The translations under genes were made by a program, and so were the position numbers. The notes beneath the pieces are model-generated. The model made no database searches. It saw nothing but the letters and a program-made list of their open reading frames with translations, and was not told the origin of the DNA. Below are positions 1,413-54,668 of a stretch of 59,715 nucleotides of DNA, piece by piece. The DNA comes from an uncultured Candidatus Saccharibacteria bacterium (lineage in GTDB: Bacteria; Patescibacteriota; Minisyncoccia; Minisyncoccales; PWPS01): assembly GCA_964507105.1 (NCBI GenBank), contig CAZDOR010000002.1, positions 22,871 to 82,585 of the forward strand. Direction: 5' to 3'. Every line of letters begins with the position of its first letter. Position 1 is the stretch's first letter.

Positions 1413-1442
1413 ATTATACTAAAGACGGTTTCGTCAAGTCAA
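1413..1442 (-). promoter_or_regulatory. Putative sigma70 promoter of the pilins at 944..1372 and 393..860
   Basis: TTGACT-18 bp-TATAAT. Confidence 0.55.
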
Positions 1443-1843
1443 TCCCCGTGGATCGTTCTGGTCTTTTCTTTCCTTATCCAACCGGATTTTCCATCACGCA
1501 TCGACTCGATAAAAAGCCAGTCGTCTATCTTGTTTTTTACCAGATAGAAATCATCCACGGAAGCTTCTTTTTGAATATCGGCCTCGTCTCCGGGTCCCTC
1601 CAGAAGTGGATATTTTTCTTTTTCCACTTCCAAAATAACCACTATCGGTTCGACGGAAAGGCCTTCCCTCAACTGAAAAACGACTCCCGTTCGGGTGACC
1701 ACCTCTTCGGGGATGGGGAAAAAAGCAACATAATAGACCGTGAAAGCAAAAAAAAGCAGCCCGATAATCGCTATTAAAAGAGAAGCGAAATAAAATCCGG
1801 GATTCGGTCCGGTATCGTCTTCATAGTAAAAAGTAGTCGTCAT
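1439..1843 (-). CDS. Single-pass membrane protein with a C-terminal bacterial SH3-like domain
   Basis: TM helix at aa 17-42; LLEGPG...DW...GKSGWIRK resembles the SH3b pattern (R/ExGPs...W...G..GWv). Confidence 0.6.
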   Translation of the reverse strand: MTTTFYYEDDTGPNPGFYFASLLIAIIGLLFFAFTVYYVAFFPIPEEVVTRTGVVFQLREGLSVEPIVVILEVEKEKYPLLEGPGDEADIQKEASVDDFYLVKNKIDDWLFIESMRDGKSGWIRKEKTRTIHGD

Positions 1844-1855
1844 CGATCAAACAAA

Positions 1856-4800
1856 TTAATCTTCATCATTTTCATCTTCTTCGCCTTCATCCCCTTCTTC
1901 GGAAAGTTGTCCCTCTTCGGCTTCTATCAGGAGCTCTCGCATCCGGTTGGTCAAATCGACCAATTTTTGCTCAAAAGCGTAACTGTCAATCTCGCCTTGT
2001 TGATACAGGCCGTCATAGTCGGCGAACTCCTCCTCCAATTGTAAATAAAGCTCTTCGAAATACTCTTCTTCTTCCAATTCTTCTTCATTCATCAGGGTGT
2101 GTGCTCGGGAAAATTCATCGCGAAGTGTATCGGTTAAACCGGGAACCCTGTCTATATCTATGAGATCTCTTTCCGGAAGTTCTTGAAATTGAACTTGACC
2201 GGCCATGTTTCTGAAATTAAAGAGGGCGGCACCCAGCAAAAAAAGACCGGAAAAAAGTATGAAAACCGAAATTATGAAAAGCGGCTTATCATCTTCAATT
2301 TCATCTTTTCTTTCTTGCTTTTTAACTTCTTCGGGAAGCAAATTTACTCCCACGTCTATCGGGTCTTTGCGGAGTCCGCGCAAAGCTAAACCGACCACGT
2401 TGGAATAAAGCACCGACTCCTTCTCCTCCAAAAAGTCGGGGGCATCTATCTTCTTTAGCGGACTCCCCGTCTTGAAATTCAAATCTTCGAATTGACCTTC
2501 AAAAAAGTCGGTTATCCCGGGAAGCAGGGCGGTTCCTCCGGTAAGAAGAACCTCTTCTACCTGCGAGCTGAATTCCCGCTGATAATAATCGCGGGCCTCC
2601 TCTATTTCATCAACGATCTTGTGTCCGTGTTTTTCCATTATTTCATAAATATCTCCTTCCTTTTTGAATCCATTTTCCCGCTTTATTCTCTCTGCGTCGA
2701 CAGTCGTCTCTCCCAAATTTTTAGCTATTTCCCGAGTAAAATAATTTCCACCATAAGGAAGTGGAACGGAAACCACTAAGGACCCTCGCTTGTCATACAT
2801 GTTCAAAGTGCTGGTTTTGGCTCCCATGTCCAAAACCATCCTATCCTTTCCGTCGGCCATAACCAACTTCTCAGTGCCGTCCTCCCGCTTTATTTTTTTA
2901 ATTGGCAAAAGGGATCTACCTACGGAAAAGCCCTCTATCTCAAAAGCGGCTAAATCCAGTTTCGTCGACTTGAAAAAGAACGTATAGCTGTCAACTATCT
3001 CCTTCTGGGCGGCAACACAAATTATCTTCACCTCTTCCCCTACGGTGGGCACTTCTCTCGTGTCCCAATAGAGTTCATCCGGGTCGTGAGGTATAATCAT
3101 TTTTATTTTTTTCTTCACCTTTTCATTGAAGTTTTTTTTGTCGTTGAAAGTGAAAAGATGAACAAAAGTTCGAGACTCGGGCAAGCTAACCACTGCTTTA
3201 TACTTTTCTCGTTTCAAAACTATCGCTTTATCCTTGTCGTTGTCACTTATCCTGACCGGGAAAGGGTAAGCGTTTTCCAAGACCTCTTCTAATCTTTCGG
3301 ACAATTTTTTCTGATCGACAATTTCTCCGTCCTTGATTATCCCTTTACCCAATCTGGTTCTCCCATAAGTGAAAACCGACTTGTTTTCATTTAAAATAAG
3401 CATCTCTATCGAATAATCGCTGAGGTCGATTCCCATAAACCAGTGCTTGTCGGCAAAGAGTCTTTTCCATTGAATTCTCTTCAATTTTTTAATTTTATCC
3501 CGAACGAAAGGAGGTAAATTGTCATTATCATCAAATTCTTTCTGCCTGTCCTCCGGTCCGGAAGTTTCTATTCGGCCCGGATCTCGGTCTTCTTGTTTTT
3601 TTTCTTTTTTATTTTTCGAATCCAAAGAGGTGATTATCATCTCCACATCCTCTTCATCAATTTCTTCCTTTTTGGTTAATTCTTCCCGATCCATGTCACT
3701 CAAGTGGTTTAAATCCAGACCGGCATCGGCTAATTTCTTTTCCAAGTCGACCGAAAGCCCGGTAACACTTTCGGTTTTTGGTTTCGAACTTCCATCGCCT
3801 TTTTTCAGACGAAGGTTTATTTTCTCACGCATCTCTCTGACACGCCGAAAGAAGTCATCCCCAAGTGAAGAATCGTCTTCTTTTTGTAGTAGGCTTTCCA
3901 GTTTTTTTTCGGCCGATTCGAACTGTTCTTCTTCGAATAGTTTTTTAGCTTCCAAAAAAATTCTTTCCGCCTTTTTCTCTTCTTTTTTCTTCTTTTTTCT
4001 TCTTTTTTCTTCTTTCAATGTTTTTTTAAGTTTCGCTAATTCATCAACTTCTTTTCGATTCACACCGACCGCCTTGAGACGATCTTCCAAGCCGGAAACA
4101 AGCTGTCGAGCTCGCTTTAATCCACCCTTTTCGATTATCTCTTCTATTTCCGGTATCTCACTTTTGACCGCTTTTATTTCGGACTCCTTTTTTTGTCTTT
4201 CTTTTCGCGCTCGGGATAAAATTTCTTCGCCTTGGTCAATTAGGGATTCTACTTCTTCTATTTTTTTTCCGATTTCTTCGCCTTTTTTCTTTATTTTAGT
4301 CCACTTTTTTTCTTCTTCCTCTATCTTTTTTAAATTGGAACTCAACCATCTCTTTTTTTCTTTAATCCATTTACGCTGTTTTTTATTTTTATCTTTTTCT
4401 TCAAGATCCCGAATTACGGACAGCTTCTCCTCGAGCAACTTTTTTAGGCCATTTAACCTTTCCTTTTTTTCTTCAGCCGATTTGAGTTTTTCTTTTAATT
4501 TTTTCTCCTTTTGAATCAGCTTTTCGAGTAACTCCTTCCACTCGGAAACGGTTTCCTTTATTTTCGCAAGATCTTCATTTCCGCTCAATTTTTTCAGTTC
4601 CGAATTATCGAGGTCGGGAAGATCCTGGATGTCGATTTCGGGTATTCTGACTATTTTTTTATTGCCGAAAAACTTTTTTACAAAAGAAAATAGAGAGCCC
4701 TCTCCGCGATAGTCTTTCTCTTCTTTATCGACAATATTTTTTCTGAGCCGAGAAGATTTCTTCAAAAGATTACCCTTTTTACTAACCTTTTCGCTAACCT

Positions 4801-7066
4801 CCTTATCTGAATTTTTCAGATCATCAATTAACGAATCTATCAAAAACAATGCCTTCAAGTACTCTTCTTTTTGAAAACGGTCCTCCACTTCTTCGTAACG
4901 AGAAAGGAGCTTTTTGATTTTTTTATTCAGTTCGGAATCGAGCCTCTTTTCTTCTCTTTTTTTCTCCAACTTTTCTTCTAATTTTTTTATTTTTTTCTCC
5001 GGAACTTCGAGAGATTCTTCTCTTTTCAATTCTTCCAGCTTATTTTTCAATTCTTCCGGTTTTCCTTCTTCGATTTGATTTTCAATTTGAGAGATTTTTT
5101 TCTTTAATTGATTCCTTTTCTTTTCTTTTTCCTTTTTTATCTCCTCGATTCTATCTTCTCCTTTCTCTATTTTTTCTTTAATTTTTTTCAAGAGTTGTCC
5201 TGCTTTTTTCTTTCTGTTTCTTGCCTCAGCTAATTTATTCTCTTCTTCCTCTATCTTTTTTAAATTGGAACTCAACCATCTCTTTTTTTCTTTAATCCAT
5301 TTACGCTGTTTTTTATTTTTATCTTTTTCTTCAAGATCCCGAATTACGGACAGCTTCTCCTCGAGCAACTTTTTTAGGCCATTTAACCTTTCCTTTTTTT
5401 CTCCGACTGATTCTAATTTTTCTTTTAGCTTTTTTTCTTTCCGAGTCAAGTTTTTAAGTGATTCATTCCATTCGGAAAGGACTTCTTTCACTTCTGCAAG
5501 ATCTTCTTTTCCCTTTAATTTTTTCGAGCTCGAATCATTGATCTCGGGAAGATCTTGGATGTCGATTTCGGGTATTCTGACTATTTTTCTGTTTTCGCTT
5601 ATAACCAGCTGACCATAGCCGGCCAATTCCTCGTCTTGAACTTTTTCTTTCAACGAAAAACACTCGCTCAAGAGTCCGGAAAAACTATCTTCTTCCTCCA
5701 GTTTTTGAATCAGCTCCAATAGAATAAAGATTGATTCTAAAAAGTTCGATTGTTCATAGAGTTTTTGTGCCTCTTCATAACGATTAAATAGTTTTTCCCT
5801 CTTTTTTTCTTGAATTAATTCCTCTTCCGCCTCTTTTAATTCGATTTCTATTTTTTTCAAAGTTTCATTAATTTTCTCTCTTCTTTCCTTTAAAGAGGAT
5901 ATTTTTTTAAGTTCCTCATCGGTAGAATCTTTTATTTTTTTGTAAAAATCATATTTTTTACTCAACCAGTCACCCATTATTAAGGTGGGCCTTGTTGATT
6001 TTATCTCATCGAGAGAATCGAGCTTTTTTTTCATAACTTTTTTCAAGGCAAGTAGCTTTTCTTTTCTCTCAGTTAGTTTTTCCAATTCGCTTTCCATTTC
6101 TTTCAGGTCGTGGGTTAACCGCTCGGAATCCTTCTCCATTTTTTTAATTAATTTCCGCAAAGCGGTCACGGAAATTTTGCCGGGATCCTCGTTATAACCG
6201 AATTCCTCGGGATCCGGAAACCGATCCATGTCGAGACTGGGAATCCGAAACCCCTTTCCGGTAACCTTGCCCAATCTTCCGCTCTTTAATTCTTCTTCTC
6301 GATAAAAAAGATTTTTCTTTTCGTATTCCTTTTTTTCTTCTTTTTTCGCTTTTTCTTTGAGTTTTTGTGCCTTTTCAATCAGTTTTTCCTGATTTTTAGG
6401 TTCCGCATTTCTAATCAGAAACTCGGTTAAAAATTGAACTTTTAAATATTCTCCGTTCTCAAAATAATCCGCGGCTTCTTGATATGGAATTTTCAGTTTA
6501 TTCTTTTCTTTCTCTTCTTTTTTCTTTGATTTCAGTTCCTCAATTTTTTCTTTTACCCGTTCGGCCGCAGTCTCTTTTTTTCTTAAAGTTTTCTCCAAAT
6601 GTGAGGCGGACTTTACTGCTCTCTGTTTTTTGTTTTCCATTCGAAACAATTCCTTCTCCAGGTAGGATTTTTCATCTTTTATTTCGCTCATTTGGCTTTC
6701 CTCCTCCCAAACTTTTTTTTCCAAATTACGAAGCTTATCTTCAAGCTCCCATCTCTTTCTGATCAGTTTTCGCCTTCGCTCCGGAGAATCCTCGGCAGCA
6801 ATGGACTTCTCGATTCTTTTTCTTTTTTCCTCAACTTTTCTCTGTATTCTTTTACTGATGGCCAGAGAATCTTCAATTTTCTCTTTTTCTTTTTGGAGAT
6901 CTCTTCTTTTTCTCTTAGACTTACTTTGATTTCGAATCAAGGATTCCATCTGCTCTTCGGCAGATTTTAACTCTCTTTTTAATTTTTCGATGCCCTCCTC
7001 GAATTGAGAGTACCTCTCTTCAAGTTCGGCGATCGTTTCAGGTTTTTGTTCCTCCTTATTGGTCAT
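1856..7066 (-). CDS. pilM: Giant PilM fusion (1736 aa): about 1200-aa repeated coiled-coil/helical region + HhH-like motif + PilM actin-like domain + PilN-like VNLLP/TM + acidic tail
   Basis: PilM motifs from aa ~1211: MGIDLSDYSIE, VVSLPES, VLDMGAKTS, GGNYFT, LLTGGTALLPG, VGLALRG; then VNLLP and one TM; located inside a pilus operon. Confidence 0.85.
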   Translation of the reverse strand: MTNKEEQKPETIAELEERYSQFEEGIEKLKRELKSAEEQMESLIRNQSKSKRKRRDLQKEKEKIEDSLAISKRIQRKVEEKRKRIEKSIAAEDSPERRRKLIRKRWELEDKLRNLEKKVWEEESQMSEIKDEKSYLEKELFRMENKKQRAVKSASHLEKTLRKKETAAERVKEKIEELKSKKKEEKEKNKLKIPYQEAADYFENGEYLKVQFLTEFLIRNAEPKNQEKLIEKAQKLKEKAKKEEKKEYEKKNLFYREEELKSGRLGKVTGKGFRIPSLDMDRFPDPEEFGYNEDPGKISVTALRKLIKKMEKDSERLTHDLKEMESELEKLTERKEKLLALKKVMKKKLDSLDEIKSTRPTLIMGDWLSKKYDFYKKIKDSTDEELKKISSLKERREKINETLKKIEIELKEAEEELIQEKKREKLFNRYEEAQKLYEQSNFLESIFILLELIQKLEEEDSFSGLLSECFSLKEKVQDEELAGYGQLVISENRKIVRIPEIDIQDLPEINDSSSKKLKGKEDLAEVKEVLSEWNESLKNLTRKEKKLKEKLESVGEKKERLNGLKKLLEEKLSVIRDLEEKDKNKKQRKWIKEKKRWLSSNLKKIEEEENKLAEARNRKKKAGQLLKKIKEKIEKGEDRIEEIKKEKEKKRNQLKKKISQIENQIEEGKPEELKNKLEELKREESLEVPEKKIKKLEEKLEKKREEKRLDSELNKKIKKLLSRYEEVEDRFQKEEYLKALFLIDSLIDDLKNSDKEVSEKVSKKGNLLKKSSRLRKNIVDKEEKDYRGEGSLFSFVKKFFGNKKIVRIPEIDIQDLPDLDNSELKKLSGNEDLAKIKETVSEWKELLEKLIQKEKKLKEKLKSAEEKKERLNGLKKLLEEKLSVIRDLEEKDKNKKQRKWIKEKKRWLSSNLKKIEEEEKKWTKIKKKGEEIGKKIEEVESLIDQGEEILSRARKERQKKESEIKAVKSEIPEIEEIIEKGGLKRARQLVSGLEDRLKAVGVNRKEVDELAKLKKTLKEEKRRKKKKKEEKKAERIFLEAKKLFEEEQFESAEKKLESLLQKEDDSSLGDDFFRRVREMREKINLRLKKGDGSSKPKTESVTGLSVDLEKKLADAGLDLNHLSDMDREELTKKEEIDEEDVEMIITSLDSKNKKEKKQEDRDPGRIETSGPEDRQKEFDDNDNLPPFVRDKIKKLKRIQWKRLFADKHWFMGIDLSDYSIEMLILNENKSVFTYGRTRLGKGIIKDGEIVDQKKLSERLEEVLENAYPFPVRISDNDKDKAIVLKREKYKAVVSLPESRTFVHLFTFNDKKNFNEKVKKKIKMIIPHDPDELYWDTREVPTVGEEVKIICVAAQKEIVDSYTFFFKSTKLDLAAFEIEGFSVGRSLLPIKKIKREDGTEKLVMADGKDRMVLDMGAKTSTLNMYDKRGSLVVSVPLPYGGNYFTREIAKNLGETTVDAERIKRENGFKKEGDIYEIMEKHGHKIVDEIEEARDYYQREFSSQVEEVLLTGGTALLPGITDFFEGQFEDLNFKTGSPLKKIDAPDFLEEKESVLYSNVVGLALRGLRKDPIDVGVNLLPEEVKKQERKDEIEDDKPLFIISVFILFSGLFLLGAALFNFRNMAGQVQFQELPERDLIDIDRVPGLTDTLRDEFSRAHTLMNEEELEEEEYFEELYLQLEEEFADYDGLYQQGEIDSYAFEQKLVDLTNRMRELLIEAEEGQLSEEGDEGEEDENDED
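4311..4472. repeat. 162-bp exact intragenic direct repeat, copy A
   Basis: Identical to 5241..5402 (offset 930 bp = 310 codons); encodes EKKERLNGLKKLLEEKLSVIRDLEEKDKNKKQRKWIKEKKRWLSSNLKKIEEEE. Confidence 0.93.
5241..5402. repeat. 162-bp exact intragenic direct repeat, copy B
   Basis: Identical to 4311..4472; part of a larger imperfect duplication starting at RIPEIDIQDLP. Confidence 0.93.
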
Positions 7067-7126
7067 CGATTAAAAAAATAATTGGAGTTTATTTATTCTA
7101 CCAATTTTTCGTGTCGTCAACAAACT

Positions 7127-7603
7127 TCAGCGACGTAGATTTTCAACCGTGGTAAAGCTTCTTTCAAAATCAAACTGAGGCATCTCTTCCGGGTTGTAAA
7201 AAGCAACATCAAAATCCATTCGTACGGCACCGTCTCCCGCTTTTTCAAAATTAAGTCTCCTTATTACCGACCTTTCCGTCGAAACACGATCCGGCTCCCG
7301 ATCTCCTCTTTTAATATAAAAATGACTTCCCTCCAGATAAATTTCAACCGGATCGGTGCTCTCGTATAACGAATTCAAAATTAATTTGTCTCCCTCAACC
7401 GATTCAATCTCCTCGGCTAATCTTATTTCTCGAGAAACCCGTTCGGAAATTACTCTCCCGTTCTGATTGACCACTTCCATGGACATATTTCTCATTCGGG
7501 CAGTGGAAATATTGGTACCTATCAAAACGACGGTACCGATGAGACCGGTTATTATCGCAAAATAAATTAAAAATTCTATCAGTGTAAATCCGCGTTTATT
7601 CAT
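7127..7603 (-). CDS. Minor pilin (PilW/PulJ-like)
   Basis: MNKRG|FTLIEFLIYFAII; start moved from the track's 7618 to the ATG at 7603. Confidence 0.85.
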   Translation of the reverse strand: MNKRGFTLIEFLIYFAIITGLIGTVVLIGTNISTARMRNMSMEVVNQNGRVISERVSREIRLAEEIESVEGDKLILNSLYESTDPVEIYLEGSHFYIKRGDREPDRVSTERSVIRRLNFEKAGDGAVRMDFDVAFYNPEEMPQFDFERSFTTVENLRR

Positions 7604-7604
7604 A

Positions 7605-8015
7605 TTAACGATTTTCAATTTTTACCGACTCCTCGTTTTCGGCACATTCTGCTTCCAAACTTATCCTACCTACCCCGACGGCTTGAACGAAATATCCCGT
7701 TTCGTATTCACAATCGTCTCCGAGTGGGTCTTTCGGAATTTCATCCATATAATCGGGAACCAGATCGCTCTCGCACTCACTTATATCGATCCGACTTTCT
7801 TCCACACATTCCGGATACTCCCCTTCTCGGGACCGATATTCGGTAAAAGAAAGTTGTAAATCTTCAAGATGAGCTCTCCTTCTGTCATTTCTGGATTGAC
7901 TAATCCTGTATCCGGGATTTATCGTTACGACGATGGCAACCGTCAGTATGGAAATGATACCGATAACCAAAAGTATCTCAACCAGGGTAAATCCTTTTTC
8001 GGTTATTTTTTTCAT
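7605..8015 (-). CDS. Type IV pilin (major/PulG-like)
   Basis: MKKITEKG|FTLVEILLVIGIISIL, TINPG, IPKDP; start moved to the ATG at 8015. Confidence 0.9.
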   Translation of the reverse strand: MKKITEKGFTLVEILLVIGIISILTVAIVVTINPGYRISQSRNDRRRAHLEDLQLSFTEYRSREGEYPECVEESRIDISECESDLVPDYMDEIPKDPLGDDCEYETGYFVQAVGVGRISLEAECAENEESVKIENR

Positions 8016-8016
8016 C

Positions 8017-8475
8017 TTAAAATTCAGTAAAATTATCGACTTCACGCCAATTTATAAGCTCCATCTCGAAGTGGCCTTCTACTTCTTCATGCTCTTCAAG
8101 ATGAACTTCCGCCTGAATATTTTTAATGCTATCCCTCTTTTCACCGACACCGGAAACGATGCGTATCGTTTCTCTGGATTCGACTTCTCTTATCCTACAA
8201 GTTTCTTCCCCGACGGAAATTTCCTCATCTCCCTCGTAATCGGAATCGAATTTAAGTCTGTTCAAGCCCTCTTCAACGCAACTATTGGCTAAATGAAGAG
8301 CAATCCGGGAGTCTACCAAATCGTCCGTTCTTCTCAAATCTTCGGCAGCGGAAAAAAACATCCCCAAAAAGAGAACCATAAAAAATCCGCTCATTATGAT
8401 AACCGAGGTGAGGGCCACCATTCCTCTTTCATCAACGGAAAATTGGGTTTTTTTATTTTTAGTATTGTTCTTCAT
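8017..8475 (-). CDS. Minor pilin, PilX-like (lacks E5)
   Basis: RG|MVALTSVIIM hydrophobic helix; A...A.SCVEEGL..L; C-terminal WREV; start moved to 8475. Confidence 0.75.
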   Translation of the reverse strand: MKNNTKNKKTQFSVDERGMVALTSVIIMSGFFMVLFLGMFFSAAEDLRRTDDLVDSRIALHLANSCVEEGLNRLKFDSDYEGDEEISVGEETCRIREVESRETIRIVSGVGEKRDSIKNIQAEVHLEEHEEVEGHFEMELINWREVDNFTEF

Positions 8476-9469
8476 CCAATATGCAGCGAACCGAATAATA
8501 ATTGTCTTTTCCGTAATATTCACGAGGAATACCCGAGGCTGAGCTCAGCTCTCTGGTCCAAGCGGTTCCTCCGAACTCTTCCGTTGCCGTCCACCACTGA
8601 CCCAAAGACCCCTTTCCGTAAAATTCAGTCGTATACCGACCTCCGTGGCGACCACTCCAGTCGGTTTCGTTGGTCCCGCCGTATTCCTGGTCGACCAAAT
8701 AGTCTCTGACCTGCCCGTCTCCTCGAACTTCTTCTTCGGAATCTCCATAAGGAAATTCATTTTCGCACCAAGTTTCCGATTGTCCGGTTTTTTGACAAAC
8801 GGCTCTTTCCATACGAGTGAAATCATCATCGGTGGCCGCTCTCCATCCTTCCGGACAAAGATCTTCTCCACCATCACTTATCGCATCCCAGTTGTAAAGT
8901 CTCCCATACGAGTCACAATTTTCCTCTTCATATTCATAGCAGAAACTGCCCCCTCCGTCGTGATCGGCATAATTGATATTCTCAGCGATCCAGCAATCAT
9001 CTCCTATCTTTACAGTCGAATAGTTTTGCCCGTCACGGGAATCGGTAATCTCTTTTCCGCACGGAAAGGGAGGAATCATCCAGGGAGTCATAACTTCTTG
9101 CAATTCGACTTCCTGAGTTTCCCCTTCGAGATCCCATTGAACGACGGAATCGACCAAACAAGCTCCGTTTTGACAATCGACACTCGTCTCTCTATCAAAT
9201 ACCGTATTCTCATCTTCCGGGGAAATCGTTTCTCCGGAAGTTCCGAAATCCCTGATTTGCTCGTAATCATCGTTTCTGAGAGCACGAATCTCTTCAATTC
9301 CCTCTCGAGCTATCATCAGGGCTTGTGATTTACCCGTACTGTAATTCATCGAAAGTTGAGCACGAATAGCCAGATGAGTAACGGAACCGACACCGACAAT
9401 AAAAACGGCAATAGCCAACATCAACTCCATCAAGCTGGCTCCCCGTTGCTTTTTTTTATCGAATATCAT
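8459..9469 (-). CDS. Minor pilin (PilV-like) fused to a FISUMP/Fib_succ_major domain
   Basis: RG|ASLMELMLAIAVF; CG..ITDSRDGQNYSTVKIGDDCWIAENINY, YGRLYNW, CPEGWR, WWTAT, YSVRCI. Confidence 0.88.
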   Translation of the reverse strand: MIFDKKKQRGASLMELMLAIAVFIVGVGSVTHLAIRAQLSMNYSTGKSQALMIAREGIEEIRALRNDDYEQIRDFGTSGETISPEDENTVFDRETSVDCQNGACLVDSVVQWDLEGETQEVELQEVMTPWMIPPFPCGKEITDSRDGQNYSTVKIGDDCWIAENINYADHDGGGSFCYEYEEENCDSYGRLYNWDAISDGGEDLCPEGWRAATDDDFTRMERAVCQKTGQSETWCENEFPYGDSEEEVRGDGQVRDYLVDQEYGGTNETDWSGRHGGRYTTEFYGKGSLGQWWTATEEFGGTAWTRELSSASGIPREYYGKDNYYSVRCILDEEQY

Positions 9470-9470
9470 T

Positions 9471-9935
9471 TTAATAAGCTTCTATTCTTCCACTTTCGGA
9501 CACTTTTATCGTTTTATTCATCCCTTCGTAACTGAAATTTATTTCACCGGAGCTTTTTCCGGCCCTGAAACCGACCGTATTTCCCGAGTGCCCCCCGGGC
9601 TCATCGACTATCGCCCGGTAATAATATTTACCTCCGAAAATCAATTTTTCAACCTCGGCATCGAAACCACTTTTTTCATTTACGGTAATCGCTTCGGTTT
9701 GTCTGTCGAGATCATCTTTGTCCCTGCCCCATAAGAAAGAAACCTGTGCCTCGTCCCGACCGTAACCGGCACTAAGGAGAGCTCCCCTGAAAGTAGCCAC
9801 ATGCTCTCCATCACGAAAAGATATTCCCGTCGGACGGTCGGTCCGAATCGTTGTTTCAGCCAAAACCATACCACCAAAAAGAAGAGTAAAAAAAACGATA
9901 CAAGTTATTAATAATAATTTTTTACTTTTTATCAT
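9471..9935 (-). CDS. Secreted small beta-sandwich (Fn3-like) protein in the pilus operon
   Basis: Signal peptide; AT.RG, F.WG, YYYRAIV resemble the Fn3-like module also present in 9948..11282. Confidence 0.55.
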   Translation of the reverse strand: MIKSKKLLLITCIVFFTLLFGGMVLAETTIRTDRPTGISFRDGEHVATFRGALLSAGYGRDEAQVSFLWGRDKDDLDRQTEAITVNEKSGFDAEVEKLIFGGKYYYRAIVDEPGGHSGNTVGFRAGKSSGEINFSYEGMNKTIKVSESGRIEAY

Positions 9936-9947
9936 GATTTAAATTTA

Positions 9948-11282
9948 TTATCCGTCGGGAATTTCATCCAGAGGAATTATACATCTACCCGCACCCGCAT
10001 CTCCCAACGTGTGTGGATGGCCGGGAACCCCGAGTCGCTCTCTTTTGACACCCGTCTCACCCTTTCTCAATCTCCTAACCCAAGCACTCATTCCTTGCAT
10101 GCTGGAAGTCCAGAAAATGGCCTCTTCTTCCATTTCTACAAAATCGGATACATCTTCATAATAAAATCCGGCCAGCCGACCCTCCCATCCGGACGCTCCT
10201 CCTTCTTTAAGCATCTCTCCAACCGGACCACCTCTCCATCCCTCTTTTTCCAAATCTTCATCACTCATCCCCAACTCTTCTTCCAGTTCTTTGTAATCTT
10301 CATCGGTGGGTAAGTCCCAAATTGTTGGACAAAGTTCGGTTCGTGCTGCGTTTTGGTTATAAAGAGCTCCATACTCCTTATAGTTATCTTCTTCCATCGC
10401 CTCCGAGACGTCGCTTCCTTCATATCCGTAGACATAATACCGCGGATTATTGTGATGCGAATCCCAGGGCGGATAAACTTCCGGAAGATATCGCATATTT
10501 TCCGCAACCCAACAGGTATCACCCACTTCCACGGTAGGGTATTCACTCCCGTCACGCGGATCGGTAAAATTCTGAGTTCCACATTCGGTAAAGAGTGTTC
10601 CCGTGTTAAAGCCGATAATTTCTCCGCAATCCGTTTCTCCGTCGGATTCACCGCAAGCTCTGAAATAATAACGGGTATTTATATCCAATCCTTCCAGCCG
10701 TGCGGAAAAAGACCCCACTCCACCTTCGCCGGCATCGACCTCTCCGCCTTCCAAATTTTCCGTCTCTCCATACTCGAAATATCTGTCCACTTCCTCGTCC
10801 CCGGCATCATTTTCGACATAACCGTCCACCTCGGCATAATGATCACCCACTTCGGAAAAGCCACGGGTAGCAACTCTCAACACTTCTTCTTCTTCAAGCG
10901 GAAGAATCAGTGGCTCTCCGCTGTTTTTTAAAAATACTACACACTTGCTTTCATCTATCTCTCCACCCGGAGGTAATTCGAAATCATAATGAATTTCTTG
11001 ATCCTCCATACAATCACTTCCACGAAACATCTTGTAGCCATCCCTCTCCTCATTTCGGGTAAACTGGACGCCCCAATCACTATCCAGTTTTCCACTGATC
11101 GCATAAGATTGAGCTCTCTTTAAAATATCGAGCATTGTTTCCACCTCTTCGTTAAAGACTCTCGATTCATAAAAACCCACGGTATAAGGAACCAAAACGA
11201 CACTTATAAGAATAACCAGCCCGATCACTATCATCGTTTCAAAGAGGGTGAACCCGCATTTTCCCTTTTCGACTTTTCCCAT
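9948..11282 (-). CDS. Minor pilin (FimT/FimU-like) + Fn3-like module + FISUMP domain
   Basis: CG|FTLFETMIVIG; AQSYAISG..DSDWGV; RYYFRACG; FTDPRDGSEYPTVEVGDTCWVAENMRY, YGALYN, CPTIWDLP, FWTSS. Confidence 0.88.
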   Translation of the reverse strand: MGKVEKGKCGFTLFETMIVIGLVILISVVLVPYTVGFYESRVFNEEVETMLDILKRAQSYAISGKLDSDWGVQFTRNEERDGYKMFRGSDCMEDQEIHYDFELPPGGEIDESKCVVFLKNSGEPLILPLEEEEVLRVATRGFSEVGDHYAEVDGYVENDAGDEEVDRYFEYGETENLEGGEVDAGEGGVGSFSARLEGLDINTRYYFRACGESDGETDCGEIIGFNTGTLFTECGTQNFTDPRDGSEYPTVEVGDTCWVAENMRYLPEVYPPWDSHHNNPRYYVYGYEGSDVSEAMEEDNYKEYGALYNQNAARTELCPTIWDLPTDEDYKELEEELGMSDEDLEKEGWRGGPVGEMLKEGGASGWEGRLAGFYYEDVSDFVEMEEEAIFWTSSMQGMSAWVRRLRKGETGVKRERLGVPGHPHTLGDAGAGRCIIPLDEIPDG

Positions 11283-11292
11283 TTTTTATTCT

Positions 11293-12339
11293 TTAAAACT
11301 CGTGAGTTACTTCGTAAACGGGGAGAATTATTGCAAAAGCAAGAAAAGCAACCATAACACCCAAAAAGATAAGTATTACCGGCTCCAAAACTACCGGAAG
11401 TTTCTCGGTTTTTCTGGAAACCCGGGTACTGAAAAAATCGGCCAAATAACTGAAGCCTTCTTCGTAAGATCCGGTCTCTTCACCGGTTAGCACCACGGAA
11501 ACGAAAACGCTGGGAAACAAATTGGGGTAATCGGAAAGCGCTTCTCCCAAGCTGACTCCCTTTTGAGTTCTTATTTTTATTTTTTCCATCGCCTCTCTGT
11601 ATCTGATGTTGGTCACCGACTGAGAAACAATTTCGAGAGAGTCGGTTATCGGTAATCCGCTGGCAAAAAGAGTGCTTATCAGCTGAGCGATGACGGTAAG
11701 TTGATATTCTTTTACAAGTCCCTTGGCTATCGGCATTCTCAGCTGAACAGAGTGCCAGAGCTTTTTTATCGGTTCAACTTTCAAAAGTAGCCAGACCGCC
11801 ACTCCGAAAGCGGCCAATCCTCCGAAAACAAAAAGTCCACTTTCCTGCATAGTTTCCGAAATTCCCAGAAGCATTCGAGTAGTGATGTGTAGCTCAACAT
11901 CCAAGCTGTTAAAAACGGAAACCAAATCGGGCAAAATAAAGATGGAGAGTCCGGCGGCCAATAAAACCGCAAAACCCAAAATTAATTTCGGGTAAAGAGT
12001 AGCCGAACTGATATCTTCTTTAAGTTTACTGCTTCTTTCCAACCAGCTGCCTAAATTTTCAAGATTTTCTTCCAGGGTTCCCGATTCTTCACCGGCTCGA
12101 ATAAAACTGACGAATATTCTTCCGAAGTAAGGATTCTCGTCAAATATTTCATAAAGTGAAGTTCCTTTTTCAACCTTTTCCTGGGCCTTCTCCAGGGTTT
12201 GGGTAAGAGCCGGAACTCTGGATTGCTCAGCTAAAAGCTCAAAAGACTCATTAATCGGCTTACCACTTTTAATCAGAAGAGATAGATTTTTAACCAAATC
12301 CACTTTCTCCTGAGTGTTTATTTTTTTGAATACGGCCAT
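11293..12339 (-). CDS. pilC: Type IV pilus platform protein PilC (GspF family)
   Basis: Two T2SSF repeats, GEESGTLEENL / GEETGSYEEG, YP, EP, final TM AIILPVY. Confidence 0.95.
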   Translation of the reverse strand: MAVFKKINTQEKVDLVKNLSLLIKSGKPINESFELLAEQSRVPALTQTLEKAQEKVEKGTSLYEIFDENPYFGRIFVSFIRAGEESGTLEENLENLGSWLERSSKLKEDISSATLYPKLILGFAVLLAAGLSIFILPDLVSVFNSLDVELHITTRMLLGISETMQESGLFVFGGLAAFGVAVWLLLKVEPIKKLWHSVQLRMPIAKGLVKEYQLTVIAQLISTLFASGLPITDSLEIVSQSVTNIRYREAMEKIKIRTQKGVSLGEALSDYPNLFPSVFVSVVLTGEETGSYEEGFSYLADFFSTRVSRKTEKLPVVLEPVILIFLGVMVAFLAFAIILPVYEVTHEF

Positions 12340-12343
12340 GGAG

Positions 12344-12724
12344 TTAAGCGATTATTTTGTCTTCTACCCCCAAAAGCTCTCTCATCTTTTCGACCACTTG
12401 GGAAAAAGAATCCTCTTCTTTTACAAAATAGCCCTCAGCAACCCGGTTGCCTTCTTTTCTGTCCACTTCTTGATTGAGGGTAGTCAGAATTATAAAAGGA
12501 ATTCCGGAAAGTTCTTTGATTTTTTTGGTTTCTTTTATCAATTTAAAACCGTCCTTGAAGGGGATCAGAATTTCGGTAACCACCAAGTCCGGCTTTTCCT
12601 CTTTTATCTTTTTGAAGGCTTCTTCACCGTCTCTGGCAGAAATAAACTCTATCTTCTCTCCGAGCTTTTTTTTATACAATTTTATGTAAAAATCGTCCTT
12701 GTCTACGAATAATATTTTTTTCAT
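12344..12724 (-). CDS. Single-domain response regulator, atypical receiver (phospho-Asp replaced by Glu)
   Basis: ILFVDKD, ARDGEEA, KPDLVVTEILIP (E at the D position), IILTT, YFVK. Confidence 0.85.
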   Translation of the reverse strand: MKKILFVDKDDFYIKLYKKKLGEKIEFISARDGEEAFKKIKEEKPDLVVTEILIPFKDGFKLIKETKKIKELSGIPFIILTTLNQEVDRKEGNRVAEGYFVKEEDSFSQVVEKMRELLGVEDKIIA

Positions 12725-12734
12725 AATTTTTTGA

Positions 12735-14435
12735 TTAAGCTTTTGCCGCCTTACTTATCTCCTCCAAGGTAGTTTCTCCCATCAGGGCTTTCATTACTCC
12801 GTCTTGAACCATGGTCGTCATACCTTCTTTCATCGCCTGCTTTTTAATCAAGTCCGAAGTTTTTTTATTACTAACCAAGGATTTTATTTTTTCCGATATT
12901 TCCAAAACCTCAAAAATAGCCGTACGACCGGAATATCCGCTTCCTTCACAAACTTTACAGCCATTACCTTTGTAAAATCTTATCTTCGACAAGTCCTCTT
13001 CACCGGAAATCTTTTTTACGGTTTCCGGAAGCCCCTCTACTTCGGAAAGCAATTCCAGCTCTTCATCGGATAAGAAATGACTTCGCTTACACTTATTGCA
13101 GATCGTTCTAACCAACCTCTGGGCAATAATCACATTTACGGAAGAAGAAACAAGAAAAGGTTCGGCATTCATCTCCAAAAATCTGGGGAAAGTGGTGGCC
13201 GCATCGTTGGCATGCATGGTAGTTAAAACCAGATGACCGGTCATGGCTGAATTTAAGGCCATATCAACCGTTTCTTCATCCCTTATCTCACCGACCATAA
13301 TTACATCCGGATCCTGGCGAACTATCGCCCTAAGACCTTCCAGAAAGGTCACCCCCTTTTCCGGATTGACTTGGGTTTGTTGAACACCTTCCACATTATA
13401 TTCGGTCGGATCCTCGACCGTCATTATATTAACTTCGGGATTGGATAACATCTGTAATACGGAATAGAGAGTGGTACTCTTACCCGACCCGGTCGGACCG
13501 ACCACCACTATCATGCCATACGGTTTTCTCGCCGCCTTTTTCACCCTTTTCAGGTCTTTATCCAACAAGCCGAGCTCATCTATTGAAAAGCGGTTACCTT
13601 CTTGCATTAAGAGTCTCATAACTATATTTTCCCCCTCGGTGGTCGGCATTACCGAGACCCTCATATCTATTTTCCCTCCATTGGTTAATTCGAACTCAAA
13701 ACGTCCATCTTGAGTGGCTTCTTTCTCATCAGTTCTCAACCGAGCCATTATTTTTAATCTGGATGTAATTCGATCATGTAGTTTTTTCGGATACTCGGCA
13801 ACCTTGTGTAAAATACCATCAACCCGAAATCGTATTATTCCCGAATCGGATTGGGGTTCTATGTGTATATCCGAAGCGGTATTACTTTCCGCATAATCAA
13901 CTATGGAATTAACGAACTGAACCACACTTTCCTCAGCCCCTTCACCTTTTTTCTTTCTCATCTTTTCTATCAATTCAGTAAGTCTGGTGGAAAGATTTCC
14001 CTTGTATTTTTTCAGAGCCTGCTCCATATCAAAAGGAGTGGCATAATGGACATTGACTTTCTTGCTCGCCTTCTGCTCCAAGGTTTTTAAAAAAGTATAA
14101 TTTCCCGGATCGGAAGTAGCCACTTTTATCTCTTCGGAATTTTCATCGAAAACTATCGCTTTTTGGCTTTGAGCTACAACTTCCGGAATGTAATTAAGCA
14201 TTTTACCGCTTATCTCATCTATATTCTGTTTTTTAAGATTAATATAATCATACCCGGATTCATCGGCTATTATTCTCCCCAAGTTTTCATCCTTTATCAA
14301 CCCCTTTTTAACCAGCGCCTCCTCTATGGTGGATTCGTCCAATCGGGAAATTCTCAAGGCCTCTTCGAATCCTTCCGCGGAAACGTGCCTCGGCTCAACC
14401 AATATTCTTTTTAATTTTTCTTCTGATAAAAACAT
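12735..14435 (-). CDS. pilB: Type IV pilus assembly ATPase PilB (GspE family)
   Basis: ASDIHIEP, Walker A GPTGSGKST, TVEDPTEY, RQDPDVIMVGEIRD, GHLVLTTMH, Zn tetracysteine. Confidence 0.96.
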   Translation of the reverse strand: MFLSEEKLKRILVEPRHVSAEGFEEALRISRLDESTIEEALVKKGLIKDENLGRIIADESGYDYINLKKQNIDEISGKMLNYIPEVVAQSQKAIVFDENSEEIKVATSDPGNYTFLKTLEQKASKKVNVHYATPFDMEQALKKYKGNLSTRLTELIEKMRKKKGEGAEESVVQFVNSIVDYAESNTASDIHIEPQSDSGIIRFRVDGILHKVAEYPKKLHDRITSRLKIMARLRTDEKEATQDGRFEFELTNGGKIDMRVSVMPTTEGENIVMRLLMQEGNRFSIDELGLLDKDLKRVKKAARKPYGMIVVVGPTGSGKSTTLYSVLQMLSNPEVNIMTVEDPTEYNVEGVQQTQVNPEKGVTFLEGLRAIVRQDPDVIMVGEIRDEETVDMALNSAMTGHLVLTTMHANDAATTFPRFLEMNAEPFLVSSSVNVIIAQRLVRTICNKCKRSHFLSDEELELLSEVEGLPETVKKISGEEDLSKIRFYKGNGCKVCEGSGYSGRTAIFEVLEISEKIKSLVSNKKTSDLIKKQAMKEGMTTMVQDGVMKALMGETTLEEISKAAKA

Positions 14436-54623: not shown

Positions 54624-54668
54624 AACGTAATCACTATCGTAAACTATTAATTTACCTACCGTCAATTA

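What the first reader, a model, noticed from the sequence alone, without database searches (positions are those of the whole stretch)
1856..7066. Giant PilM with a ~1200-aa modular coiled-coil extension: a possible pilus-linked cytoplasmic strut or tether
Seen: the PilM domain starts only at aa ~1211. The N-terminal part is built from repeating units: a TPR-like cap (YQEAADYF ~195, RYEEAQKLY ~428, RYEEVEDRF ~724, IFLEAKKLF ~1035), a RIP.xD..D.P linker (~274, ~496, ~806) and long K/E heptad coils. Known: canonical PilM is a ~350-aa soluble actin-like protein of the PilMNOP alignment complex. Inference: the extension lies on the cytoplasmic side of the single C-terminal TM and could form a very long rod. 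In an ultrasmall CPR cell it might link the pilus motor to the opposite membrane, the nucleoid or incoming DNA, or space motors apart. I do not know of this architecture being described.
Basis: partly seen in the sequence, partly recalled or inferred. Interest (0 to 1): 0.88.

Follow-up and report, generated by a model that had tools for sequence, protein, structure and literature searches.

The report
PilM fused to giant coiled-coil scaffold
A real 1,736-residue gene of a tiny CPR bacterium joins the pilus-base protein PilM to a 1,200-residue helical scaffold that sister lineages encode as a separate gene directly upstream of pilM, pointing to a conserved cytoplasmic partner of the type IV pilus machine that I could not find described.

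Summary
ORF 1856-7066 (-) is one open 1,736-aa frame inside a type IV pilus operon. PilM starts at aa 1212, followed by a PilN-type NLLP motif, one TM helix and an acidic tail.

The N-terminal 1,200 aa are modular. A 180-aa antiparallel helical hairpin (AF2 pLDDT 94-97) is followed by three paralogous units of TPR-like cap, disordered RIP-motif linker and hairpin, then a fourth cap.

- **Not unique:** seven to eight other CPR PilMs, most labelled Ca. Nealsonbacteria, carry 250-1,100-aa extensions.
- **Split form:** in the ten closest loci with upstream sequence, the same part is a separate 321-1,967-aa gene immediately upstream of pilM.
- **Shared features:** that gene has the same head motif (RW-x13-W at residue 103-119) and the same caps. 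It ends in a conserved DLSDLDF tail, and its partner PilM begins with a small duplicated domain.

The window protein is therefore a gene fusion of a pilus accessory scaffold with PilM-PilN.

The models argue against one long rod. They show hairpin fingers on flexible linkers, with conservation concentrated at the hairpin tips. Most likely this is a PilM-anchored cytoplasmic recruitment scaffold.

The partner is unknown, and no literature describing it was found. Assembly could not be checked with reads, and a 162-nt exact internal repeat is a caution.

The parts
1856..7066 (-). Whole gene: 1,736-aa fusion of coiled-coil/TPR scaffold, PilM, PilN-like anchor and acidic tail
6497..7033 (-). Head: antiparallel coiled-coil hairpin, aa 12-190 (helices 12-91 and 95-190, turn at S-P-E 92-94)
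   Evidence: AF2 on aa 1-260: mean pLDDT 86.6, aa 11-185 at 94-97. Foldseek aligns about 163-200 columns to two-helix hairpins such as YscO 4mh6 (TMt 0.85, rmsd 2.5), none significant.
6698..6787 (-). Family head motif at the hairpin tip, aa 94-123 (SPERRRKLIRKRWELEDKLRNLEKKVWEEE); first W at residue 106
   Evidence: The same motif has its first W at residue 103-119 in the 16 other relatives with a complete N-terminus, fused or stand-alone. blastp with composition correction gives E 2e-7 to 3e-3. The HMM hits only pilM-fused or pilM-upstream ORFs among 2,814 ORF segments.
6296..6496 (-). Cap A, aa 191-257: three short helices, TPR-like
   Evidence: 6.3 bits, above the 99th percentile of shuffles
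6170..6295 (-). Linker A, aa 258-299, low-confidence or disordered, with FRIPSLDMDRFPDP (aa 273-286)
5807..6169 (-). Hairpin 2, aa 300-420 (H300-353 and H362-437)
   Evidence: paralogy with units B and C
5651..5806 (-). Cap B, aa 421-472
   Evidence: 16.7 bits, above every one of 500 shuffles
5501..5650 (-). Linker B, aa 473-522, with VRIPEIDIQDLPEIN (aa 496-510)
4925..5500 (-). Hairpin 3, aa 523-714 (H523-581, turn DKN 582-584, H585-666, plus further helices)
4814..4924 (-). Cap C, aa 715-751
   Evidence: blastp to the cap of L013up gives E 0.01. The HMM scores only 1.2 bits.
4580..4813 (-). Linker C, aa 752-829, with VRIPEIDIQDLPDLD (aa 806-820)
3977..4579 (-). Hairpin 4, aa 830-1030 (H830-891, turn DKN 892-894, H895-979, plus further helices)
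3806..3976 (-). Cap D, aa 1031-1087
   Evidence: 5.7 bits, above the 99th percentile
3434..3805 (-). Junction, aa 1088-1211: low-confidence acidic linker plus a short basic helix (aa 1186-1194) directly before PilM. It contains no remnant of the stand-alone tail or of the PilM N-domain in any frame.
2375..3433 (-). PilM actin-like domain, aa 1212-1564
2327..2350 (-). GVNLLPEE, aa 1573-1580: PilN-type N-terminal motif, here in cis
   Evidence: Nearly invariant in the alignment of relatives (consensus GINLLPEE). That this is the motif by which PilN binds PilM rests on established knowledge; PDB 5eou is a PilM-PilN chimera.
2213..2284 (-). Single transmembrane helix, aa 1595-1618
   Evidence: Kyte-Doolittle scan finds only this segment above 1.6
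1859..2206 (-). Extracytoplasmic acidic tail, aa 1621-1736. It stands where relatives carry SH3 domains.
4311..4472 (.). Exact 162-nt repeat, copy 1 (aa 865-919, tip of hairpin 4)
5241..5402 (.). Exact 162-nt repeat, copy 2 (aa 555-609, tip of hairpin 3)
1439..1843 (-). Downstream 134-aa TM + SH3-like protein. It is a paralogue of the TM-SH3 C-terminus of relatives' PilM and a likely PilO-like partner.
   Evidence: SH3_4 E 0.03; E 2e-13 and 3e-12
11293..14435 (-). Same operon: PilB ATPase (12735-14435), stand-alone receiver domain (12344-12724), PilC (11293-12339)
7127..11282 (-). Same operon: five pilin-like genes plus one 154-aa ORF (9471-9935) that has no pilin-family hit. Two of the pilins carry FISUMP domains.

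Best explanation
The gene is genuine. It is an in-frame fusion of two neighbouring type IV pilus genes.

One is a PilM-PilN-like protein, made of an actin-like PilM domain, a cis NLLP motif, a TM helix and an outside tail. The other is a large cytoplasmic coiled-coil/TPR accessory protein that sister lineages encode as a separate gene immediately upstream of pilM.

**Shown**
- The fused and split forms share synteny, a positionally fixed head motif and cap motifs.
- The extension is a string of four antiparallel helical hairpins (about 8-12 nm each), four small TPR-like caps and four flexible linkers.
- Sequence conservation is concentrated at the hairpin tips.

**Inferred**
- The scaffold hangs below the PilM ring at the cytoplasmic face of the pilus machine.
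- In split systems it is held there by its C-terminal [AV]-D-[LI]-S-D-[LI]-D-F tail docking onto the duplicated small domain at the N-terminus of PilM. In the window, covalent fusion has replaced that contact.
- The conserved hairpin tips, and perhaps the repeated RIPxxDxxDLP linker motifs, are binding sites that capture and hold clients at the machine base. The most plausible clients are the PilB/PilT ATPases or a regulator such as the operon's receiver protein. This would resemble what the unrelated TPR and coiled-coil proteins SgmX and FrzS do for PilB in Myxococcus.
- Unit number, and so valency, changes quickly by internal duplication.
For: **Identity and context**
- PilM domain, NLLP motif, TM helix and operon context are established.

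**Fused relatives, from independent assemblies**
- P0020 is on 4 contigs in at least 3 samples; P0017 is in 2 JGI metagenomes.
- L015 and L017 have extensions of 761 and 797 aa. L021 has 1,111 aa. L018 has at least 543 aa. L010/P0012 has 250 aa. L011 is also fused.

**Split relatives**
- A 321-1,967-aa highly charged gene (charged fraction 0.54-0.62 where measured) lies 6-38 nt upstream of pilM on the same strand in the eight loci where I measured the gap. The ten loci are L006, L007, L013, L014, L046, L072, L074, L076, L077 and L078.

**Head motif**
- Its first W lies at residue 103-119 in the window and the 16 relatives with a complete N-terminus.
- The HMM hits nothing else among 2,814 ORF segments in 1.03 Mb of held CPR DNA, and it recovers four proteins that were not used to build it.

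**Caps**
- The HMM from relatives lands on all four window caps, and three of the four exceed the 99th percentile of shuffles.
- Relatives L007up and L014up give true Pfam TPR hits.

**Tail and N-domain**
- The tail is present in 8 of 8 complete stand-alone proteins.
- The PilM N-domain is visible at the N-terminus of 17 of the 18 close PilMs examined. It is kept in fused L011 (44 bits) and absent from the window and from the other seven fused proteins tested.

**Structure**
- AF2 results are; Foldseek gives hairpin-only matches.

**Selection on the duplicated units**
- dN/dS is 0.35-0.38 at dS 0.44-0.60.

**Tolerance of N-terminal additions**
- An N-terminal mCherry-PilM fusion is fully active in M. 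xanthus (PMC11580455).
Against: - No binding partner is identified, so the recruitment function rests on analogy.
- Homology of the extension to the stand-alone proteins rests on short motifs. A full phmmer search of aa 1-1200 against 1.84 billion representatives returned only the protein itself. Word-seeded searches with module B and with the head motif found nothing.
- All relatives were found through PilM, so exclusive association of the head motif with pilM is only partly controlled. The independent metagenome scan failed.
- The AF2 models are single-sequence. Caps and linkers are low-confidence (pLDDT below 50 for aa 426-538 and 720-829), and the oligomeric state is unknown.
- The window lacks both tail and N-domain, so the docking pair is inferred from co-occurrence only.
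- One cap (aa 724-746) is not significant by HMM.
Confidence: 0.6

Rival explanations
1. Self-assembling cytoskeletal or organiser element. The hairpins of neighbouring PilM subunits, or of neighbouring machines, bundle with each other. This would stabilise the PilM ring in an envelope without a secretin, or cluster several pilus machines at the host-contact site, as the DivIVA or FrzS coiled coils do at poles.
For: - The multivalent repeated hairpins have hydrophobic heptad seams.
- Conserved tips could be homotypic contacts.
- PilM is itself oligomeric; the 3jc8 machine model holds 24 PilM chains over 2 entries.
- The FrzS coiled coil alone is sufficient for polar localisation (PMC11580455).
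Against: - Nothing here tests self-association.
- A dedicated tail-to-PilM docking pair and a positionally fixed distal head motif fit an adaptor with a heterologous client at least as well.
- This rival is not exclusive of the main explanation.
Confidence: 0.15
2. One reading: a very long rigid strut or ruler that spans the cell to reach the opposite membrane, the nucleoid or incoming DNA, or that spaces motors apart.
For: - The extension is large (1,200 aa), cytoplasmic and mildly basic (net +5 to +8 per 100 aa over most of aa 1-1100).
- Its length varies widely between relatives (250-1,967 aa), as a spacer's might.
Against: - AF2 gives hairpins that fold back on themselves plus four disordered linkers, not a continuous rod.
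- The sequence is not a single-alpha-helix type; the E-to-K i+4 score is only 0.03-0.21.
- No DNA-binding family was detected.
- The conserved elements are hairpin tips and short motifs, not overall length.
Confidence: 0.08
3. Low-constraint K/E-rich expansion. The region would be a tolerated, fast-evolving, low-complexity appendage with little specific function.
For: - No HMMER-detectable homologue exists in 1.84 billion proteins.
- Composition is extreme (43-59% charged).
- There is recent internal duplication and a gene-conversion tract.
- Length differs strongly between relatives.
Against: - A 3.6-kb frame is kept open in the small genome expected of such an organism.
- dN/dS between the duplicated units is 0.35-0.38.
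- The head motif sits at a fixed position in lineages whose PilM domains are only about 32-47% identical.
- The gene is present, fused or split, in every informative locus of the clade.
- The head hairpin model is very confident.
Confidence: 0.07
4. Assembly or sequencing artefact. Two separate genes would have been joined, or the unit number mis-estimated, by a mis-assembly across the internal repeats.
For: - A 162-nt exact repeat lies 930 nt apart inside the gene.
- The closest relatives have two genes rather than one.
- The exact protein has no gene on record in the contig look-up.
Against: - The junction shows no trace of the stand-alone tail, an intergenic gap or the PilM N-domain in any frame.
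- The flanks of the two repeat copies are diverged on both sides with many synonymous changes, so both copies exist.
- Fusions occur in independent assemblies of other lineages.
- The head motif sits at the expected distance from the start.
Confidence: 0.04

Closest known systems
Canonical PilM of the T4aP PilMNOP alignment complex (Pfam PF11104; PDB 3jc8, 5eox)
   Same: - Actin-like domain with the GIDxSxxSx start.
- Sits in a PilB/PilC/pilin operon.
- Followed by the NLLP motif by which PilN binds PilM.
   Different: - Canonical PilM is a soluble protein of about 350 aa with about 10 residues before the domain, as in most of the 66 CPR loci scanned.
- The window protein has 1,211 residues before the domain, and the PilN-like anchor is fused in cis.
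GspL of type II secretion (from established knowledge)
   Same: One polypeptide carries a PilM-like cytoplasmic domain, a TM helix and an outside domain, i.e. the PilM-PilN fusion topology.
   Different: GspL has no coiled-coil/TPR extension. The outside part here is an acidic tail (SH3 domains in relatives), not a PilN/PilO-type fold. No sequence relationship was tested.
SgmX (14 TPRs) and FrzS (receiver + long coiled coil) of Myxococcus xanthus (PMC11580455, PMC7668184)
   Same: These are cytoplasmic TPR and coiled-coil proteins dedicated to type IV pili. They bring the PilB ATPase to the machine base, so this is the functional model I favour.
   Different: - No homology to them was detected here.
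- They are not encoded beside pilM and are not fused to it.
- They act through the MglA polarity GTPase, and direct binding to PilM has not been detected.
Stand-alone coiled-coil/TPR proteins encoded upstream of pilM in Ca. Nealsonbacteria and related CPR MAGs (unnamed; L006up, L007up, L013up, L072up, L074up, L076up, L077up, L078up and others)
   Same: - Same head motif at the same distance from the N-terminus.
- Same cap motif and same composition.
- Same position in the operon, after the upstream pilin or PilC genes and directly before pilM.
   Different: They are separate polypeptides of 321-1,967 aa that end in a DLSDLDF-type tail. Their PilM partner has an extra N-terminal duplicated domain and C-terminal SH3 domains. 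All of these are missing from the window fusion.
Long antiparallel coiled-coil hairpins: YscO/FliJ (4mh6), HP0958, chemoreceptor cytoplasmic hairpins, the Smc arm
   Same: They share the shape of the head (TMt up to 0.85 to YscO). As in chemoreceptors, conservation is concentrated at the hairpin tip.
   Different: Foldseek E-values are all 0.012 or worse and identity is 10-20%. This is a generic fold, not evidence of relationship.
ArlX (FlaX) of the archaellum (from established knowledge)
   Same: A coiled-coil protein that forms a cytoplasmic scaffold around the ATPase of a type IV filament machine.
   Different: It is archaeal and anchored by its own N-terminal TM helix. It is not linked to a PilM-like protein. 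It was not compared here.

Membership tests
PilM (Pfam PF11104 PilM_2) | Match to the family profile above the curated threshold | tested here: met
   76.9 bits against a cut-off of 27, aa 1212-1526. PDB PilM 3jc8 matches at E 3.9e-10.
PilM (NCBIfam TIGR01175) | Score above the curated cut-off of 133 bits | tested here: not met
   71.9 bits over nearly the full model (5-347 of 348). This is a divergent CPR PilM, like its relatives.
PilM | Encoded with PilB, PilC and pilins | tested here: met
PilM | Partnered with the PilN N-terminal NLLP-type peptide | tested here: met
   GVNLLPEE at aa 1573-1580 lies in cis before the TM helix and is nearly invariant in relatives. Binding itself was not tested.
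PilM | Soluble single-domain protein of about 350 aa | tested here: not met
   The protein is 1,736 aa, with 1,211 aa before the domain and a TM helix plus 118 aa after it.
Amuc_1101-family PilM-like protein (NF045709) | Score above the cut-off of 650 bits | tested here: not met
   65 bits
Unnamed pilM-upstream coiled-coil/TPR scaffold family (defined here) | Head motif P-x-[KR]-x-x-I-E-[KR]-x-R-W-x2-E-x-[KE]-R-x3-E-x3-W with its first W about 103-119 residues from the N-terminus | tested here: met
   W106 in the window. HMM score 63.7 bits, E 1.6e-18 among 2,814 ORF segments.
Unnamed pilM-upstream coiled-coil/TPR scaffold family | Repeated cap motif (L-x3-Y-x-E-A-x3-[FY]-x3-[DE]-[FY]-x2-[AS]...) | tested here: met
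   The four best HMM hits fall on the four caps, and three exceed the 99th percentile of shuffles.
Unnamed pilM-upstream coiled-coil/TPR scaffold family | C-terminal [AV]-D-[LI]-S-D-[LI]-D-F-x-[LIV] tail | tested here: not met
   Absent at the junction in all frames. This is expected if fusion replaces the docking contact.
Unnamed pilM-upstream coiled-coil/TPR scaffold family | Adjacent to, or fused with, pilM in a pilus cluster | tested here: met
   There is ascertainment bias, because all were found through PilM.
TPR repeats (Pfam clan) | Profile match of the caps | tested here: inconclusive
   The window caps give no Pfam TPR hit even at E up to 5. Homologous caps in L007up (TPR_2 E 3e-27) and L014up (E 7e-5, below gathering) do.
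Single alpha-helix (ER/K) domain | Dense i to i+4 E-to-K/R pairs with few hydrophobic residues | tested here: not met
   The i+4 score is 0.03-0.21 and core hydrophobics are 17-40% across the extension.
SgmX / FrzS | Sequence homology, and MglA or receiver-domain partners | not tested
   Their sequences were not compared here. The resemblance is functional and compositional only.

The most novel reading that the evidence does not exclude
A subclade of Parcubacteria-type CPR bacteria builds a large, previously unseen cytoplasmic basket under its type IV pilus machine.

- The basket would be made from a dedicated coiled-coil/TPR protein of up to about 2,000 residues.
- That protein is either fused to PilM or clipped onto a special PilM N-domain by a C-terminal DLSDLDF peptide. 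This is a peptide-to-actin-fold contact reminiscent of the FtsZ tail binding FtsA.
- The conserved hairpin tips would hold the ATPases, or couple the pilus base to another cellular system such as DNA uptake or the nucleoid.
- The number of hairpin units would tune valency.

If so, this would be a new structural layer of a type IV filament machine, specific to episymbiotic ultrasmall bacteria.
Probability: 0.3. Interest if true: 0.8.

Novelty: new variant of a known kind. Interest (0 to 1): 0.62.

Why it matters
- Type IV pili are the best-supported means by which CPR/Patescibacteria find and hold their hosts, yet their machines are known almost only by homology.
- This locus shows that one CPR clade adds a very large cytoplasmic component to the conserved core. 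For an organism expected to have a genome of about one megabase, that is a costly investment.
- The component comes in fused and split forms. The fusion names its partner, PilM. The split forms expose a candidate peptide-domain docking pair that can be tested directly with peptides, two-hybrid assays or structure prediction.
- It gives cryo-ET a concrete prediction: extra density beneath the PilM ring.
- It offers a natural system for asking how ATPases are retained at a pilus base that has no outer-membrane complex.

Tried and rejected
- **Module B search:** a word-seeded search with aa 421-668 gave no hit among 8,000 candidates.
- **Full phmmer search:** aa 1-1200 against 1.84 billion representatives returned only the protein itself.
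- **Head-motif search:** an alignment search of 5.8 billion proteins found nothing at E up to 0.01.
- **Cap HMM from distant fused PilMs:** built from P0017, P0020, L015, L017, L018 and L021, it did not score the window caps (best 3.6 bits). An HMM from the nearest relatives did.
- **Junction idea:** I thought the junction might keep a degenerate PilM N-domain. This is rejected, at 0.3 bits and no better than shuffles, in any frame.
- **Single-alpha-helix reading:** rejected.
- **Pfam on six pieces of the protein:** only sub-threshold coiled-coil noise. The PilM N-domain of relatives also has no Pfam match.
- **Foldseek:** only generic hairpins, none at E 0.001 or better.
- **Internal start for a short PilM isoform:** there is no Shine-Dalgarno sequence before M1211.
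- **Promoter and terminator scan:** not above chance.
- **Second PilM in the window:** none.
- **Source names for relatives:** none given.
- **Literature:** no paper combines PilM with a coiled-coil N-terminal extension or with CPR coiled coils. The CPR pilus and cryo-ET papers I read say nothing about it.
Full report
**1. Observation**

The window holds one uninterrupted reading frame at 1856-7066 on the minus strand. It starts with ATG and encodes 1,736 aa.

- Pfam PilM_2 matches aa 1212-1526 (E 1.8e-21) and TIGR01175 matches aa 1210-1564.
- The best solved relatives are M. xanthus and P. aeruginosa PilM.
- GVNLLPEE follows the domain at aa 1573-1580. This is the PilN-type motif, nearly invariant in relatives.
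- The only hydrophobic helix of the protein lies at aa 1595-1618. After it come 118 very acidic residues.
- The protein is therefore a PilM-PilN-like fusion with 1,211 extra residues in front.
- It sits in a pilus operon, all on the minus strand. The order is PilB, a stand-alone receiver, PilC, two FISUMP-domain pilins with a small unassigned ORF between them, three small pilin-like genes, the giant gene, a 134-aa TM + SH3-like gene, and two more pilins.
- The window holds no second PilM.

**2. The extension is modular**

- Self-comparison finds three paralogous units at aa 190-349, 421-668 and 715-981.
- Units B and C are 80% identical over their core (E 1e-44). Unit A is 28-33% identical to both.
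- Composition is 43-59% charged, but with 20-30% core hydrophobics and good heptad a/d occupancy. The pattern is not that of a single alpha-helix.

**3. Structure**

AF2 on aa 1-1200 without an alignment gave a mean pLDDT of 59. It predicts four pairs of long helices, each pair broken by a 3-8-residue turn:
- H12-91 / H95-185
- H300-353 / H362-437
- H523-581 / H585-666
- H830-891 / H895-979

Each pair is followed by short helices (the caps) and by low-confidence stretches at aa 259-302, 473-522, 752-829 and 1088-1185.

Run alone, aa 1-260 gave a mean pLDDT of 86.6, with aa 11-185 at 94-97.

Foldseek aligns this head only to two-helix antiparallel coiled coils. Examples are YscO (TMt 0.85, rmsd 2.5 Å over 163 columns), HP0958, an Smc arm fragment, SteB/RipA and chemoreceptor hairpins. 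None is significant.

The extension is therefore best pictured as four hairpin 'fingers' of about 8-12 nm on flexible linkers, not as one long rod. A hairpin enters and leaves at the same end, so it adds little reach.

**4. Relatives**

- A search with the PilM part found 36 proteins. The closest (44-48% identity) are 690-880 aa.
- A scan of one genome per GTDB species found 66 loci, nearly all CPR. The best are labelled Ca. Nealsonbacteria.
- Most CPR PilMs have about 10 residues before the domain. A subclade has long extensions:

| Protein | Extension |
|---|---|
| L010/P0012 | 250 aa |
| P0017 | about 520 aa |
| P0020 | about 585 aa |
| L018 | at least 543 aa |
| L015 | 761 aa |
| L017 | 797 aa |
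| L021 | 1,111 aa |

- P0020 and P0017 recur in several independent samples, inside pilus clusters.
- L021 is frameshifted inside its PilM domain.

**5. The key result: fused and split forms**

In the closest relatives the extension is a separate gene.

- In L006, L007, L013, L014, L046, L072, L074, L076, L077 and L078, a highly charged 321-1,967-aa gene lies directly upstream of pilM on the same strand. The gap is 6-38 nt in the eight loci where I measured it.
- It gives no Pfam hit in eight of the ten loci; L007 and L014 carry TPR arrays.
- These proteins and the fused ones share a head motif: P-x-[KR]-x-x-I-E-[KR]-x-R-W-x2-E-x-[KE]-R-x3-E-x3-W.
- Its first W is at residue 103-119 in every relative with a complete N-terminus, and at 106 in the window.
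- Composition-corrected blastp of the window against them gives E 2e-7 to 3e-3 for exactly this region.
- An HMM of the motif hits only these pilM-fused or pilM-upstream ORFs among 2,814 ORF segments in 1.03 Mb of held CPR DNA. It recovers four proteins that were not used to build it.
- In the AF2 model the motif begins right after the hairpin turn, so it sits at the tip.
- Caps are shared too. In L007up and L014up they score as true TPRs.

The window gene is therefore a Rosetta-stone fusion of two adjacent pilus genes. Synteny agrees: the scaffold gene directly precedes pilM, which is followed by a small TM protein.

**6. A candidate docking pair**

- All eight complete stand-alone proteins end in [AV]-D-[LI]-S-D-[LI]-D-F-x-[LIV].
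- Their PilM partners begin with a duplicated motif of about 25 aa, 'IKKAR.RGA.D..IL.KII..NPEK'. It is visible in 17 of 18 close PilMs and has no Pfam match.
- Neither element is present in the window, in any frame at the junction, nor in the other seven fused proteins tested. The exception is L011, which keeps the N-domain.
- Co-occurrence in split systems and joint loss on fusion suggest that the tail docks on the PilM N-domain. This is an inference and was not tested.
- From memory, it recalls the FtsZ C-terminal peptide binding FtsA, which is PilM's closest relative.

**7. Evolution inside the gene**

- Units B and C differ with dS 0.44-0.60 and dN/dS 0.35-0.38, which indicates moderate purifying selection on both copies.
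- They contain a 162-nt tract of perfect identity, 4311-4472 and 5241-5402. It is centred on the hairpin turn.
- This looks like gene conversion at the tips. It is also a place where short-read assemblers can err.
- The diverged flanks show that both copies exist.

**8. Mechanism**

I favour a PilM-anchored cytoplasmic scaffold whose conserved hairpin tips and linker motifs hold clients at the machine base.

- The most likely clients are the PilB/PilT ATPases or a regulator.
- The model is Myxococcus SgmX (TPR) and FrzS (coiled coil), which are needed to place PilB at the machine (PMC11580455).
- N-terminal additions to PilM are tolerated. mCherry-PilM is fully active in M. xanthus.
- Confidence is high (about 0.85) that this is a true fusion of a conserved pilus accessory protein. 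It is much lower for the client.

Rivals considered:
- self-association into a ring-stabilising or clustering lattice;
- a low-constraint expansion;
- an assembly artefact.

**9. Novelty**

- PilM, PilM-PilN-type fusions (GspL) and TPR or coiled-coil pilus regulators are all known kinds.
- I found no description of this accessory family, its fusion to PilM or its tail/N-domain pair.
- I file it as a new variant of a known kind.

**10. Caveats**

- No reads were available.
- Homology of the extension rests on short motifs. HMMER finds no full-length homologue.
- All relatives were ascertained through PilM.
- The structure models are single-sequence monomers.

Noticed in passing
window 1439-1843 (-): A 134-aa protein with one TM helix and an SH3-like domain lies directly downstream of the giant gene. 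It is homologous to the TM-SH3 C-terminus of relatives' PilM (E 2e-13) and to the small gene after pilM in L072 (E 3e-12). It looks like the PilO-type partner of a PilN-like anchor. The window PilM has lost its own SH3 part and carries an acidic tail instead.
   Followed up: partly
window 4311-4472 and 5241-5402: A perfect 162-nt repeat lies inside the giant gene, embedded in copies that are otherwise only about 70-90% identical. It is probably gene conversion centred on the hairpin tips, and it is also a risk for short-read assembly.
   Followed up: yes
window 9948-11282 (-) and 8459-9469 (-): Two large pilin-like proteins (444 and 336 aa) combine a prepilin-type N-terminus with a FISUMP (Fib_succ_major) domain. 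They may be adhesive pilus subunits.
   Followed up: no
window 12344-12724 (-): A stand-alone response-regulator receiver domain is encoded between PilB and PilC. It is a possible regulator or client of the scaffold.
   Followed up: no
L006, L007, L013, L072, L074, L076, L077, L078 (genes directly upstream of pilM): The stand-alone coiled-coil/TPR proteins all end in [AV]-D-[LI]-S-D-[LI]-D-F-x-[LIV]. Their PilM partners start with a duplicated 'RGA.D..IL.KII' mini-domain that has no Pfam match. This is a probable peptide-domain docking pair.
   Followed up: partly
L021 2852-7404: The Ca. Nealsonbacteria CSSed10_344R1 homologue has a 1,111-aa extension fused to PilM. Its PilM domain is split by a frameshift (ORF 2852-6469, then 6427-7404 in another frame). 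This is either a pseudogene or a sequencing error.
   Followed up: partly
L007 1686-7589: The largest stand-alone homologue is 1,967 aa and carries true TPR arrays (TPR_2 E 3e-27). Together with its 686-aa PilM, the pair totals 2,653 residues.
   Followed up: partly
window 3519-4514 (+): A 331-aa 'ORF' lies antisense to the K/E-rich part of the giant gene. It is most likely a by-product of the purine-rich coding strand, which leaves few stop codons opposite, and not a gene.
   Followed up: no
window 40759-41967 (-): A full-length serpin (Pfam Serpin, E 1e-93) is present in what looks like a CPR genome.
   Followed up: no
window 29166-30782 (-): A TrwB/VirD4-type coupling-protein ATPase with a treble-clef zinc finger, next to housekeeping genes.
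   Followed up: no
window 54851-58846 (-) and 53601-54665 (-): A 1,331-aa protein whose only recognised domain is DUF642, and next to it a protein with HATPase_c plus a STAS-like DUF4325 domain.
   Followed up: no
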